A DNA stretch of 56,450 nucleotides from positions 1-56,450 of the forward strand of contig JAHFBE010000003.1 of assembly GCA_023250205.1 (NCBI GenBank). The letters are read 5' to 3'. The notes beneath the pieces were generated by a model. That model did no database searches and was not told the DNA's origin. It was given only the letters and a program-made list of their open reading frames with translations. The translations under genes and the position numbers were made by a program. Shown one piece after another: positions 28,838 to 55,217 of this stretch. Every line of letters begins with the position of its first letter. The stretch's first letter is position 1. Source of the stretch: Candidatus Melainabacteria bacterium (lineage in GTDB: Bacteria; Cyanobacteriota; Vampirovibrionia; 2-02-FULL-35-15).

Positions 28838-28891
28838 GACCATTTCTGTGGAAACTATTTCTGATTTCTGATACTCTAATTCTCTGAAATT

Positions 28892-28964
28892 GCCGATGTA
28901 GCTCAGTTGGTAGAGCAAGTGCTTCGTAAGCACTGGGTCGCAGGTTCAATTCCTGTCATCGGCT
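28892..28964 (+). tRNA. tRNA-Thr(CGT), CCA not encoded
   Basis: gccgatg/catcggc acceptor stem, agctcagttggtagagc D-arm, agtgc-ttCGTaa-gcact anticodon arm, ggttcaattcc T-loop. Confidence 0.95.
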
Positions 28965-29085
28965 TGAAAAAGATTTTAAGCGAAGATTTTCTGAAAACGA
29001 AAATCTGAGCGTAGTGAAGGAAGTAGACTGTAGATCTGTGCAAAGCTGATTTTAGTCTCTGCTAAAATCAGCGGTGTATAAAAAC

Positions 29086-29137
29086 AGCAAGTGCTTCGTA
29101 AGCACTGGGTCGCAGGTTCAACTCCTGTCATCGGCTT
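29086..29137 (+). repeat. 52-bp direct repeat of the tRNA-Thr 3' part (att-like duplication or pseudo-tRNA)
   Basis: Matches 28914-28965 with one mismatch (aattcc vs aactcc). Confidence 0.92.
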
Positions 29138-29144
29138 TGAAAAT

Positions 29145-30731
29145 ATGCTTACCCGTCGCCAATTTAACAAATTATTATTAGCTACAGCTTTATTCCCTAC
29201 TGTTGCGTGTACTCAATTAAGAAAAACAAATTTTATTCCTGGTGTTCTTAGATTAAATCTAGGTTTTGAACCAGATACACTTGATTGGTTAAAGGCTACA
29301 GACTCTTACTCATTTGATGTGATTACAAATATAATGGTTGGACTTACAAAGTACAACAATGAATTAAAATCCATTCCTTCTTTAGCAAAAGGCTGGAAAA
29401 TATCAAATGACGGAAGGACTTATCATTTCTTGCTGGATAAAGATGCTAAATGGTCAGACGGAAGACCGCTGCTTGCTGAAGACTTCATCTATAGCTGGGA
29501 AAGAATTTTAAATCCAGAAACTGCAGGACCATACGCATACTTACTTTACCCAATAAAAAATGCTGCCTTATATAATACTGGAAAAATCCAAGATCCAAAA
29601 CTGCTTGGGTTTAAAGCGATTAACGATGGTGTTATTGAAGTAAATCTAGAATCACCGCTTGCATTTTTTTTAAATCTCACGTCATGGGCAGTATATTTCC
29701 CTCAAAGAAAAGACATTGTTGAAAAATATAAAGATGACTGGACGGAGCCGCAGAATATGGTGACTTGTGGTCCTTTCTTACTTGACAAATGGAAACATGA
29801 GTATAAGTTGTCCCTTAAAAGAAATCCTTATTATTTAAATCCAATTCCACTCCTTGAGCAAATTAGATATTATATGGTTCCTGAGCAATCCAGTGCATTC
29901 TCTCTTTATTTAAACAATGAGCTTGATTTTATTGACAATAGATCTATTCCAATTAGTGAGATTGAAACAGTAAGGAAAATGCCTGAGACAGAAATCTACC
30001 CCTTGCTTCGAGGAACTTATATCGGTTTTAATGTAAATAAACCCCCATTTGATAACAAATATGTTCGAGCAGCATTTTCTCATGCAATTAACAGAACGGT
30101 TTTCCCAAAAATATTAAAGCGCGAGGAAGCTCCAAGTTCTACCTGGATACCTCCTGGCTTAAAGGATTTCTACTCTCCTGATATAGGTTGTAATTTTGAT
30201 GTGAATAAGGCACGTGAGTTTTTAGCTAAAGCTGGTTTTCCAAATGGAAATAATTTTCCTAAAGTGACAATGCATTTCCCAACCAGAGAAGATGCAAAAT
30301 TAATTGCTGAGTCTGTACAGGCATTATGGAAAAAAATATTAAATGTTGATGTGGAGATCGTTAATCAGGAATGGAAGGTTTACCTCTCTACACTTCAAAG
30401 AGATCCTCCACATATGTTCAGGATGAGCTGGGGAGCTGATTTCCCTGATCCAGATACCTTTATGACTTTATTTACAAGTACTTCAGGAAACAACCATGGC
30501 AGATGGAAGAATAAAACTTATGATGAATTAGTCTTGCAGGCTGCTACTACACTGGACTTATCAAAAAGAAAAATTTTATATAAAAAAGCTCAACAACTTC
30601 TACTGGAAGAAGATATTGCAATTGCACCATTGTTTTTTAATACTCAGGTTTTATTAAATAAGCCATGGGTCAAGAATCTTAAATTTAATGCAATGGATTT
30701 AGTTTTTTGTGAAGATATCGCTGTTAAGTAA
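29145..30731 (+). CDS. oppA: Oligopeptide ABC transporter substrate-binding protein with Tat/lipoprotein-type signal
   Basis: MLTRRQF...FPTVAC signal; EPDTLD, AKWSDG.P..AEDF.YSW.R..NP, GPFLLDKW, WGADFPDPDTF. The ORF-track GTG at 29091 lies in the tRNA repeat, so ATG 29145 is preferred. Confidence 0.92.
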   Translation: MLTRRQFNKLLLATALFPTVACTQLRKTNFIPGVLRLNLGFEPDTLDWLKATDSYSFDVITNIMVGLTKYNNELKSIPSLAKGWKISNDGRTYHFLLDKDAKWSDGRPLLAEDFIYSWERILNPETAGPYAYLLYPIKNAALYNTGKIQDPKLLGFKAINDGVIEVNLESPLAFFLNLTSWAVYFPQRKDIVEKYKDDWTEPQNMVTCGPFLLDKWKHEYKLSLKRNPYYLNPIPLLEQIRYYMVPEQSSAFSLYLNNELDFIDNRSIPISEIETVRKMPETEIYPLLRGTYIGFNVNKPPFDNKYVRAAFSHAINRTVFPKILKREEAPSSTWIPPGLKDFYSPDIGCNFDVNKAREFLAKAGFPNGNNFPKVTMHFPTREDAKLIAESVQALWKKILNVDVEIVNQEWKVYLSTLQRDPPHMFRMSWGADFPDPDTFMTLFTSTSGNNHGRWKNKTYDELVLQAATTLDLSKRKILYKKAQQLLLEEDIAIAPLFFNTQVLLNKPWVKNLKFNAMDLVFCEDIAVK

Positions 30732-54862: not shown

Positions 54863-54889
54863 CTACTTTCCTAATCTTCGGTGAAATGC
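54863..54889 (-). repeat. Imperfect duplicate of the last nine codons of the 55011-55217 ORF (both read AFHRRLGK*)
   Basis: gcatttcaccgaagattaggaaagtag versus gcatttcacagaagattagggaaataa, 148 nt apart. Confidence 0.8.
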
Positions 54890-55010
54890 TTCTTTATAAC
54901 GCTCGGTGACTGCTACGCAGATCACTTCGCTATTTTTCTGTAGCGTGACACCGACGTTGCGGTTTGTCGTATATGACAAACCTCTACTTGATTCCATTAA
55001 AACACCCATA

Positions 55011-55217
55011 TTATTTCCCTAATCTTCTGTGAAATGCATTGAAAGATTGCCCTGGGTTTCCACCTTTTGATTTCCCTGGATTTGAGAACTGCTGAAAAGG
55101 TTTTGGTGGTGGAGGCTGAAATCCTTTTTTCTTGTTTTCTGCATTTGTTTTATTTTCTGTATTTGTTTTATCCTGTGGATTGTCTTTTTGACGTTTTTGA
55201 TCTTTATTTGCTGACAT
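55011..55217 (-). CDS. Small basic low-complexity protein (68 aa)
   Basis: aaaggaa SD; K/Q/N/P-rich; ends FNAFHRRLGK. Confidence 0.6.
   Translation of the reverse strand: MSANKDQKRQKDNPQDKTNTENKTNAENKKKGFQPPPPKPFQQFSNPGKSKGGNPGQSFNAFHRRLGK

What the first reader, a model, noticed from the sequence alone, without database searches (positions are those of the whole stretch)
28892..29145. tRNA-Thr 3' duplication enclosing only 120 bp, directly before oppA
Seen: 52 bp (28914-28965) recur at 29086-29137. The 120-bp interval holds a perfect 11-bp hairpin (29045-29072) and a weaker one, and there is no integrase. The copy ends 7 nt before the oppA ATG. Inference A: an attL/attR scar of a deleted island or a minimal tRNA-targeting element. 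Inference B: the upstream gcggtgta resembles the tRNA 5' end gccgatgta, so the copy may fold as a D-arm-less tRNA-like leader that directs processing of oppA mRNA.
Basis: partly seen in the sequence, partly recalled or inferred. Interest (0 to 1): 0.62.

Follow-up and report, generated by a model that had tools for sequence, protein, structure and literature searches.

The report
Structured repeat flanked by duplicated gene ends
The half tRNA-Thr copy in front of oppA is real; it is the far-side footprint of a small, folded, apparently undescribed repeat element of one groundwater Melainabacteria family, which often sits between a gene (or tRNA) end and a second copy of that end that still looks functional.

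Summary
tRNA-Thr(CGU) lies at 28892-28964, and its last 52 nt recur at 29086-29137 (51/52 identical). The recurrence ends 7 nt before the oppA ATG.

The 120-nt "insert" is not unique. It is one copy of a two-hairpin element, here called E.
- E has about 22 copies in this genome and 0-57 in 12 genomes of the same family.
- E has none in 69 genomes of other families of the class, and no Rfam match.
- E sits at gene ends: 7 of 22 copies lie beside tRNA genes, against 0.16 expected.

At least 21 E copies in 7 genomes are bracketed by 19-90-nt direct repeats of the sequence to their left. These include 8 tRNA 3' parts, 11 protein-gene ends and 2 intergenic stretches. A second case lies in this window at 54863-55037.

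The downstream copies are not decaying junk.
- Ten coding pairs differ by 31 synonymous and 6 non-synonymous changes, and all keep an in-register stop codon.
- One tRNA-Lys copy has a compensated T stem and is identical to another genome's working gene.

Best reading: this is an insertion-duplication whose new joint is E's A-rich right end. The enzyme is unknown.

The "scar of a large island" reading and the "tRNA-like oppA leader" reading are not supported. The "minimal target-copy-flanked element" reading is partly supported.

The parts
28892..28964 (+). Intact tRNA-Thr(CGU), the functional gene
   Evidence: ARAGORN. Rfam tRNA 72.2 bits. Cloverleaf minimum-free-energy fold, z = -3.7.
28914..28970 (+). 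B1: first copy of the direct repeat (tRNA positions 23-73 plus about 6 nt of trailer)
28971..29085 (+). Element E, a member of the dispersed family. The left boundary is uncertain by a few nt because GAAAA is shared with the repeat.
   Evidence: Hits elsewhere in the genome. nhmmer and the covariance model R1 (R1 hit 28973-29016, 61.6 bits). Fold z = -4.27. No Rfam family.
28980..29010 (+). Hairpin 1: outer GC/GC pairs, a tandem G.A/A.G internal loop, an 8-bp stem AGATTTTC/GAAAATCT and a 7-nt loop. This is the family's signature.
   Evidence: Covariation over 16 copies: 94% of cells paired, 5 pairs changed on both sides, 0/500 shuffles reach the score, slid controls 22-49% paired.
29045..29072 (+). 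Hairpin 2: 11-bp perfect stem GCTGATTTTAG/CTAAAATCAGC. It is identical in the vanX-locus copy on contig C9.
   Evidence: Compensatory changes in orthologous and paralogous copies.
29073..29085 (+). A-rich right end GGTGTATAAAAAC (family consensus GCGTTATAAAAA). This is the new joint with resident DNA.
   Evidence: Alignment of copies. In all repeat-flanked copies the second repeat starts directly after this motif.
29086..29143 (+). B2: second copy of the tRNA-Thr 3' part plus trailer. Its T loop (CAACTCC) matches the working tRNA-Thr of sister genome G001.
29145..30731 (+). oppA-like solute-binding protein gene (SBP_bac_5) with a Tat-type signal. Its native upstream context is kept behind B2.
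   Evidence: Orthologues in 11 family genomes.
54863..55037 (-). Second repeat-flanked E copy in the window. It comprises the gene end B1 55011-55037 (..AFHRRLGK*), a spacer 54990-55010, E 54890-54989 and B2 54863-54889 (same peptide, 3 synonymous changes, TAA>TAG).
   Evidence: (R1 hit 54950-54994).

Best explanation
What it is (shown). The 120 nt between the two tRNA-Thr pieces are one copy of 'E'. E is an 85-135-nt non-coding element confined to one family of groundwater Melainabacteria. It is built from four parts:
- a conserved hairpin with a G.A internal loop;
- a variable spacer;
- a second hairpin;
- an A-rich right end (GCGTTATAAAAA).
E copies lie at the ends of genes and tRNAs. Their left end often abuts or supplies the stop codon. 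Their right end often abuts the next start codon or a tRNA end.

How the half-copy arose (inferred). The 52-nt half tRNA is the product of an insertion-duplication. A DNA segment consisting of an intact gene end followed by E became joined, through E's right end, to a point inside the resident copy of the same gene. The gene therefore stays whole (A+B1). E follows it, and the resident 3' part (B2) with its native downstream context (here the 7 nt before the oppA ATG) is pushed behind E.

Why the two copies look like two working alleles (inferred). The far copy is either the displaced resident end or an imported end. Both copies are afterwards kept allele-like by homologous recombination with each other and with other strains.

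Likely route and function (inferred). The most likely route uses host recombination: a single crossover or one-sided homology, plus an illegitimate joint at E's right end. A dedicated integrase seems less likely. The enzyme, if there is one, is not identified. E itself probably has no dedicated role for oppA.
For: E is a family.
- The 120 nt hit 8 or more other loci in the genome.
- An HMM and the covariance model R1 find about 22 copies.
- The hairpin-1 pairing covaries, and hairpin 2 covaries.
- Copy number per genome in the family is 57, 29, 22, 18, 16, 12, 11, 5, 4, 3, 0 and 0. It is 0 in 69 genomes of other families.
- 7 of 22 copies lie within 200 nt of a tRNA, against 0.16 expected.

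The same [end][E][end copy] build recurs at these loci:
- tRNA-Leu(caa) on C61, the vanX-like gene on C9, C70 and C36;
- window 54.9 kb and C54;
- G010 tRNA-Thr, with the same junction as here;
- tRNA-Met in G001 and G006;
- the vanX locus in G001, G006 and G011;
- G004 tRNA-Lys and tRNA-Ile;
- G003, and G002 gene ends including gyrB.

Empty or remnant alleles exist.
- G001 and G009 at tRNA-Thr/oppA.
- G003 at tRNA-Met, where the flank equals what follows B2 in G006.

B2 looks like a working allele.
- Ten coding pairs show 31 synonymous against 6 non-synonymous changes, pN/pS 0.04.
- Every B2 keeps its stop codon in register. P = 3e-11 against 'B1 constrained, B2 neutral'.
- The tRNA-Lys B2 of G004 has a fully compensated, different T stem. 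Its acceptor strand does not fit the resident 5' half.
- That same B2 is 52/52 identical to the working tRNA-Lys of G002.
- B2 here carries the T-loop base of G001's working tRNA-Thr.

E's right end is the novel joint.
- In G002, E follows Leu-Lys and is joined into the 3' part of a second tRNA-Leu. The downstream flank of that copy matches the flank of the full tRNA-Leu in G000, which has a different gene order.

Tandem accretion occurs at one target.
- There are four copies of the EF-G-like gene end on C36, and one interval holds hicBA instead of E.
Against: - No enzyme or intermediate has been seen. No reads could be examined, and two metagenome scans gave nothing.
- About 70-90% of E copies have no flanking repeat. 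The duplication is therefore not an obligatory result of E's arrival, and how E normally arrives is unknown.
- The same junction is shared across genera at tRNA-Thr, tRNA-Met and vanX, while B1 and B2 cluster by genome. This needs either concerted evolution or horizontal spread of the whole allele, and I cannot tell which.
- A single-crossover model needs a circular or one-ended donor, and none is shown to exist.
- Repeats as short as 19-27 nt are at the lower limit for RecA-type recombination (my own knowledge, not tested here).
- The synonymous bias could also come from allelic imports after an ordinary target duplication.
- The in-situ conservation of both hairpins may point to a host function that this explanation ignores.
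Confidence: 0.55

Rival explanations
1. Integrase-made att repeats. E would be a gene-less miniature integrative element (CIME-like), or just the attP arms of one. It would be moved in trans by a tyrosine recombinase encoded elsewhere. B1 and B2 would then be attL and attR.
For: - Direct repeats of the 3' end of tRNA and protein genes flank the insert, and both copies look like working alleles. This is the known pattern for elements that bring a replacement 3' end.
- Tandem accretion of four gene-end copies on C36, with hicBA as cargo.
- Every family genome has 3-7 PF00589 recombinases.
Against: - One and the same E core sits between repeats of at least 12 unrelated target sequences, including two intergenic ones. 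A sequence-specific integrase would not serve all of them.
- The start of the repeat is at a different place in each target.
- Most E copies have no repeats.
- Genomes without E (G005, G008) have as many recombinases as genomes with 29-57 copies.
- There is no integrase on this contig.
Confidence: 0.15
2. True long target-site duplication. E would be a non-autonomous transposable element whose insertion makes staggered cuts 19-90 nt apart. The allele-like look of B2 would come later, from gene conversion and allelic exchange.
For: - Perfect 25-26-nt intergenic repeats occur at C54 and C70.
- The empty site in G003 equals filled site minus (E+B).
- Copy number varies from 0 to 57 among relatives.
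Against: - About 70-90% of copies have no repeat of 18 nt or more, and no short fixed duplication is visible either.
- E has no terminal inverted repeats.
- No RVT_1 was found in the family genomes searched, and Y1 transposase does not track E.
- The G004 tRNA-Lys B2 does not fit the resident 5' half, and the G002 tRNA-Leu case involves a different gene order. Neither can be a simple duplication of resident sequence.
- pS between the copies is 0.37 with pN/pS 0.04.
Confidence: 0.15
3. Functional tRNA-linked small RNA, as proposed for E. coli tRNA-linked repeats. E+B2 would be co-transcribed with tRNA-Thr, and the repeated tRNA 3' part would direct the same nuclease cut that matures the tRNA. 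This would release an E RNA and set the 5' end of the oppA mRNA.
For: - The build matches E. coli TLRs, which end in a copy of the upstream tRNA/rRNA 3' end. Three of these are processed small RNAs (PMC8144298).
- Both hairpins are kept by compensatory change, even at orthologous loci.
- E always has a fixed orientation relative to the upstream gene.
Against: - The same build occurs behind protein genes and in intergenic DNA, where no tRNA-type processing signal exists.
- B2 behind tRNA-Leu on C61 is broken by a 32-nt insertion.
- G001 has lost E+B2 in front of oppA.
- No expression data could be obtained.
Confidence: 0.1
4. Assembly artefact of a metagenome-assembled genome: a false 172-bp tandem join at a repeat.
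For: The genome is an 83-contig MAG, 86.5% complete. Reads could not be checked.
Against: - The two copies differ at one base and one indel.
- The same architecture, with lineage-specific sequence, is present in independent MAGs from other studies.
Confidence: 0.02

Closest known systems
tRNA-linked repeats (TLRs) of Escherichia coli (Egan & Landy 1978; Rudd 1999; PMC8144298)
   Same: Short non-coding units lie directly behind tRNA/rRNA genes, and each ends in a copy of the 3' end of the upstream RNA gene. They sometimes occur in tandem. Function is mostly unknown, though three are processed small RNAs.
   Different: - The copied part here is 41-82 nt, against 18-19 nt in TLRs.
- The unit between the copies is a dispersed family with two covarying hairpins.
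- That family also occurs far from tRNAs, and it sits between duplicated ends of protein genes whose copies keep the amino-acid sequence.
- No sequence relation to TLRs was looked for beyond Rfam, which gave no match.
CIMEs and other integrase-less, att-flanked elements that accrete at the 3' ends of tRNA and protein genes (streptococcal ICE/IME literature, e.g. review PMC5704250; my own knowledge for details)
   Same: The insert is flanked by direct repeats of the target gene's 3' end. The gene is kept intact. Tandem arrays form at one target (C36). No recombinase lies inside the element.
   Different: CIMEs derive from one ICE/IME with one att specificity and are usually kilobases long. Here a 66-135-nt core is found at many unrelated targets with variable repeat start points. 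Most copies lack repeats.
Insertion-duplication (Campbell-type single-crossover integration) and homology-facilitated illegitimate recombination during natural transformation (my own knowledge: pneumococcal insertion-duplication; de Vries & Wackernagel 2002; Prudhomme et al. 2002)
   Same: These processes give [target][insert][target copy]. One copy is of donor origin and the other of recipient origin, which fits the allele-like differences and the one novel joint.
   Different: They are known from laboratory constructs and rare events. They have not been described as the recurrent fate of a specific small natural element. Competence of these uncultured bacteria is unknown.
Small structured intergenic repeats (REP/REPIN, ERIC, Correia, RPE, IS200/IS605-derived PATEs)
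   Same: About 100 nt long, non-coding, hairpin-forming and multi-copy. Copy number differs strongly between relatives, and they sit in transcribed intergenic spaces.
   Different: E has no terminal inverted repeats, no short fixed target duplication and no inverted-doublet build. There is no matching RAYT/TnpA distribution. E shows a strong tRNA-end bias and long flanking duplications.

Membership tests
E. coli-type tRNA-linked repeat (TLR) | Lies directly downstream of a tRNA/rRNA gene, on the same strand | tested here: met
   E starts 6-8 nt after tRNA-Thr. However, only 7 of 22 family copies are next to a tRNA.
E. coli-type tRNA-linked repeat (TLR) | 3' end of the unit repeats the 3' end of the upstream tRNA | tested here: met
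   The last 52 nt match 51/52. The same holds at tRNA-Leu, -Met, -Lys and -Ile in relatives.
E. coli-type tRNA-linked repeat (TLR) | Transcribed with the tRNA and processed to a discrete RNA | not testable with these tools
Integrase-made attL/attR (island scar, CIME) | Direct repeats of the target 3' end flank the insert | tested here: met
Integrase-made attL/attR (island scar, CIME) | A cognate site-specific recombinase lies in or next to the element, or tracks it across genomes | tested here: not met
   There is no PF00589 hit on contig C26, and PF00589 counts are unrelated to E copy number.
Integrase-made attL/attR (island scar, CIME) | One conserved att core shared by all members of the element family | tested here: not met
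   The same E core is flanked by repeats of 12 or more unrelated sequences, and the repeat starts at variable positions.
MITE / transposase-mobilised element | Terminal inverted repeats | tested here: not met
   The ends are no more complementary than shuffled ends in 10 copies.
MITE / transposase-mobilised element | Short target-site duplication of fixed length | tested here: not met
   Flanking repeats are either absent or 19-90 nt long. No short fixed repeat is seen at the boundaries.
MITE / transposase-mobilised element | Dispersed multi-copy family with copy number varying among relatives | tested here: met
   0-57 copies per genome in 12 family genomes.
REP/REPIN with RAYT, or IS200/IS605-derived PATE | A Y1 (HUH) transposase gene co-occurs with the repeats | tested here: not met
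   PF01797 is absent from G004 (29 copies), G003 and G006, and present in G005 (0 copies).
Retroposed (SINE-like) element | A reverse transcriptase is available in the genome | tested here: not met
   No PF00078 match in G000-G008. G000 is only 86.5% complete.
tRNA-like structure / tRNA pseudogene acting as an mRNA leader | A closed acceptor stem and a tRNA model score above threshold | tested here: not met
   25.1 bits against a gathering score of 29. The minimum-free-energy fold has no acceptor stem and z = -1.65.
tRNA-like structure / tRNA pseudogene acting as an mRNA leader | The arrangement is conserved upstream of oppA in relatives | tested here: not met
   Absent in G001, G002, G009, G011 and G004. 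In G010 another gene lies between the copy and oppA.

The most novel reading that the evidence does not exclude
E and other small cassettes (for example hicBA on C36) may belong to an undescribed class of integrase-independent, homology-guided mini integrative elements.
- Each lineage would carry a 19-90-nt copy of the end of its own target gene.
- It would integrate by recombination within that end and move between strains.
- Both the element-borne and the displaced gene end would then spend time as the working end. That would explain pN/pS of 0.04 between the copies and the tandem arrays.
- E's hairpin-plus-A-rich right end would be the defined DNA end or nick at which the new joint is made.
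Probability: 0.2. Interest if true: 0.8.

Novelty: new variant of a known kind. Interest (0 to 1): 0.55.

Why it matters
If this holds, partial tRNA copies and duplicated gene ends in these genomes should not be read as integrase scars or pseudogenes by default. They mark a specific small element and a recombination route that keeps essential genes intact while inserting DNA at their ends.

The finding that the 'spare' gene ends stay protein-like (31 synonymous against 6 non-synonymous changes, stops kept) is unexpected for junk duplicates. It gives a testable handle on how DNA is exchanged in an uncultured, little-studied lineage.

It also extends the long-unexplained E. coli tRNA-linked-repeat architecture to a distant phylum and to protein genes. 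That argues the architecture reflects a DNA-level process rather than only RNA processing.

For annotation, the covariance model of hairpin 1 is specific: it gives 0 hits in 69 genomes outside the family.

Tried and rejected
- Rfam at permissive thresholds, on the window and on 10 related loci. E matches no family; only weak tRNA hits arise from the copied arms.
- tRNA-like fold of 29071-29137: rejected.
- Reverse transcriptase, Y1 transposase and tyrosine recombinase as partners of E. None is absent or present in step with E.
- Terminal inverted repeats: none.
- A distal repeat beyond a larger cargo, searched up to 30 kb downstream of every E copy in this genome. Found only on C36.
- A protein encoded through E into B2.
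  - Long open frames, and ATG starts just after the first stop, exist at some loci.
  - However, the frame through E differs between orthologous loci, and several loci have no start. I therefore do not claim a gene.
- Gene conversion plus selection alone as the cause of the synonymous bias. I rejected this by argument, not by computation. Along a surviving lineage, non-synonymous differences in a neutral copy should persist at least as long as synonymous ones.
- Two metagenome pattern scans for strain variants: 0 hits.
- Earlier-findings look-up by sequence: nothing.
- Literature searches for such elements in Melainabacteria, and for duplication by homology-facilitated recombination: nothing relevant.
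Full report
**1. Observation**

tRNA-Thr(CGU) is at 28892-28964 (ARAGORN; Rfam 72 bits). Its 3' 52 nt (28914-28965) recur at 29086-29137 with one mismatch. With one indel the similarity runs on to 28970 / 29143.

The perfect 11-bp hairpin at 29045-29072 is there. The copy ends 7 nt before the ATG (29145) of an SBP_bac_5/OppA-type gene with a Tat-like TRRQF motif. Upstream lies a thymidylate-kinase gene.

The window is contig C26 of an 83-contig, 2.09-Mb MAG, 86.5% complete. Earlier notes of this scan assign the MAG to Melainabacteria. Its named relatives are groundwater 'Candidatus Melainabacteria' MAGs.

**2. The insert is a repeat family**

The 120 nt hit other places in the same genome. One match is nearly full-length (C9, 79%), and several cover the first 45 nt.

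Reading those loci showed a common build:
- a left end (T)AAG(C/T)GAAG;
- hairpin 1;
- a 20-40-nt variable spacer;
- hairpin 2;
- a right end GCGTTATAAAAA.

Evidence that the family is real and specific:
- An HMM of the hairpin-1 module finds about 19 copies.
- A covariance model (R1) built on 16 copies finds 22 copies in this genome.
- Across the 12 genomes of the family R1 finds 57, 29, 22, 18, 16, 12, 11, 5, 4, 3, 0 and 0 copies.
- R1 finds none in 69 genomes of ten other families of the class, at E <= 1e-5.

Evidence that the hairpins are under structural constraint:
- Hairpin 1 pairing is supported by covariation. 94% of cells are paired and 5 pairs changed on both sides. None of 500 shuffles reaches the score, and slid controls give 22-49% pairing.
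- Hairpin 2 also shows compensatory changes, including between orthologous copies at the vanX-like locus of G000 and G001, whose spacers have diverged.
- E folds far better than shuffles (z = -4.3).
- E matches no Rfam family and has no terminal inverted repeats.

**3. Where E sits**

- 7 of 22 copies lie within 200 nt of one of the 34 tRNA genes. Random placement gives 0.16, with a maximum of 3 in 2000 trials.
- In G001, 9 of 40 sampled copies have a tRNA in the 651-nt window.
- The left end often abuts or supplies the stop codon of the upstream gene (C7, C28, C36, C39, L102, L174).
- The right end often abuts a start codon (C28, C15, C66, L073), a tRNA 5' end (C65, C33, C81, G002 L124, G004 L126) or, inverted, a tRNA 3' end (C81, C49).

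**4. The flanking duplication recurs**

The build [sequence B][E][copy of B] is found at the following loci.

tRNA targets:

| Genome / locus | Target | Repeat |
|---|---|---|
| G000 C26 | tRNA-Thr | 52 nt, 51/52 |
| G010 | tRNA-Thr | 51 nt, 100%; same tRNA position as in G000 although the tRNA sequence differs |
| G000 C61 | tRNA-Leu(caa) | 55 + 20 nt; copy split by a 32-nt insertion |
| G001 and G006 | tRNA-Met | 41 nt, 100% within each genome; same junction; lineage-specific T stems |
| G004 | tRNA-Lys(ctt) | 52 nt, 87% |
| G004 | tRNA-Ile | 82 nt, 85% |
| G002 | tRNA-Leu(tag) | 58 nt, 93% |

Protein-gene ends:

| Genome / locus | Target |
|---|---|
| G000, G001, G006, G011 | vanX-like dipeptidase; same repeat start in all four |
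| G000 C36 | EF-G-like gene |
| window 54863-55037 | small basic protein |
| G001 L102, L104 | gene ends |
| G003 L158 | gene end |
| G002 L172, L174 | gene ends (L174 is gyrB) |

Intergenic DNA: C70 and C54.

Two further points:
- In G000, tRNA-Thr and tRNA-Leu(caa) are the only tRNAs with a partial copy within 6 kb, and both copies lie just beyond an E copy.
- Most E copies have no such repeat: about 15 of 22 here and 36 of 40 sampled in G001.

**5. Alleles in relatives at the focal locus**

- G001 (same genus) has tmk - tRNA-Thr - 30 nt - oppA. The 30 nt are homologous to the first 25 nt of E, with the left arm of hairpin 1 only. This looks like a deletion derivative.
- G009 has a 21-nt spacer.
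- G011 and G004 carry other inserts.
- G002 is rearranged.
- At tRNA-Met, G003 is empty. Its flank equals what follows B2 in G006.
- G002 keeps only fused E termini at tRNA-Met.

**6. The second copies are not decaying**

Coding pairs:
- Ten coding pairs differ by 31 synonymous and 6 non-synonymous changes. pS is 0.37, pN is 0.016 and pN/pS is 0.04.
- All ten B2 copies keep a stop codon in register, and five of them use a different stop codon.
- This rejects random change (P = 7e-18). It also rejects the mixed model 'B1 constrained, B2 neutral' (P = 3e-11).

tRNA copies:
- The tRNA-Lys B2 of G004 has a different but perfectly compensated T stem. Its acceptor strand does not fit the resident 5' half.
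- That B2 is 52/52 identical to the working tRNA-Lys of G002.
- B2 at the focal locus carries the T-loop base of G001's working tRNA-Thr.

Meanwhile B1 and B2 mostly cluster by genome (vanX, tRNA-Met, tRNA-Thr). So either the copies are homogenised, or the whole allele spreads.

I conclude that each B2 is, or recently was, the end of a working allele. It is not a neutral relic of a simple duplication.

**7. Which joint is new**

- In every case B2 begins directly after E's A-rich right end, at a target position that differs from locus to locus.
- The B1-E joint looks like the ordinary 'E behind a gene end' arrangement. B2 is followed by the native downstream sequence.
- In G002 the cluster is Arg-Leu-Lys-E-[Leu 3' part]-C. 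Here C is homologous to what follows the full tRNA-Leu in G000, whose gene order is Arg-Lys-Leu. So a segment ending in E has been joined into a resident tRNA-Leu.
- On C36 the EF-G-like gene end occurs four times: B1 - short E - B2 - hicBA - B3 - one small ORF - B4 - native flank. All four copies are still protein-like. This is tandem accretion in which E is only the smallest cargo.

**8. Mechanism**

Shown:
- the family, its structure and its positions;
- the recurrent duplications;
- their allele-like state;
- the position of the novel joint.

Inferred: an insertion-duplication in which an intact gene end plus E is joined, through E's right end, into the resident gene. This could happen by a single crossover of a B-carrying molecule, or by one-sided homologous recombination with an illegitimate second joint. 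Later recombination between the copies and with other strains would follow.

I could not identify an enzyme.
- There is no RVT_1 in the family genomes searched.
- Y1 transposase and tyrosine recombinase counts do not follow E.

A strict transposase-type target duplication is disfavoured for three reasons. Most copies lack repeats. The G004 and G002 cases cannot be duplications of resident sequence. The substitution pattern also argues against it. A classical integrase is disfavoured by the many unrelated targets of one core.

**9.

- Inference A is half right. The repeats are att-like and the element is minimal, but it is not an island scar and is not tRNA-specific.
- Inference B is not supported.

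**10. Comparison with known systems**

The nearest described architecture is the E. coli tRNA-linked repeat (PMC8144298). The nearest process-level analogues are att-site accretion of CIMEs and laboratory insertion-duplication. E differs from REP, MITE and PATE elements in the features tested.

That is a lead, not evidence.

**11. Limits**

- No reads and no RNA data were available.
- No close strains were found.
- Genomes other than G000 could only be sampled through fetched stretches.
- Repeats shorter than 18 nt, or diverged below about 75%, were not scored.

Noticed in passing
G000 contig C36, reverse strand 295-1520 (not in the window): The 3' end of an EF-G-like gene occurs four times in tandem (..PIITGKKK*, PIITGKKK*, ..PIIMGKKK*, PIIIGKKK*). 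The copies are separated by a short E, a hicB-hicA toxin-antitoxin pair and a segment with one small ORF. This is an accretion hotspot at a protein-gene end.
   Followed up: partly
window 54863-55037 (- strand): A second E copy in the window is flanked by 27-nt copies of the end of a small basic protein gene (..AFHRRLGK*). The copies differ by 3 synonymous changes and TAA>TAG. An ATG one base after the first stop opens a 48-codon frame through E into the second copy.
   Followed up: partly
L130 (G006), L129 (G011), L158 (G003), window 54890-55010: At several loci the frame of B2 stays open through the whole of E (41-87 codons). At some loci an ATG, and in G006 an AAGGTGGA ribosome-binding site, lies just after the first stop. 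The frame through E is not conserved between orthologous loci.
   Followed up: partly
L131 (G004, vanX-like gene end): The vanX-like ORF has no stop before E and reads through hairpin 1 (..EITSEDMPTSGMAEQR*). E therefore supplies a C-terminal extension and the stop codon.
   Followed up: no
G000 C29:2040-2150: A different 47-nt GC-rich insert (cgttatgagttccttcggctaaagcctcaggactccgcttcgctccg) is flanked by a 32-nt direct repeat (94%). Long flanking duplications are therefore not limited to E.
   Followed up: no
G000 C61:~400-432: The second tRNA-Leu(caa) copy carries a 32-nt GC-rich hairpin-like insertion (TCCGCCAGAGGCGGACCCGTCCTTTGGTGGGC) in its T loop.
   Followed up: no
window 28853-28891, and upstream of tRNA-Trp, -Lys, -His and -Arg in G000: A conserved motif (TTCTGATTTCTGATACTCTAATTCTCTGAAATT) precedes several tRNA genes. 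It is probably the shared tRNA promoter/leader. At C65, E lies between this motif and tRNA-Ala.
   Followed up: no
G000 C53:34327-34665 compared with L142 (G004), L171 (G002), L167 (G006): The gene order of a tRNA cluster differs: Arg-Lys-Leu in G000 against Arg-Leu-Lys in the others. E copies and partial tRNA copies lie at the changed joints. Two allele types of tRNA-Lys(ctt) are distributed without regard to genus.
   Followed up: partly
G001 L073 and L075; G000 C81: E copies also occur as partial tandem pairs. They also occur as inverted pairs bracketing a tRNA: tRNA-Ala(tgc) in G000, and tRNA-Met+E+copy followed by an inverted E in G001.
   Followed up: no
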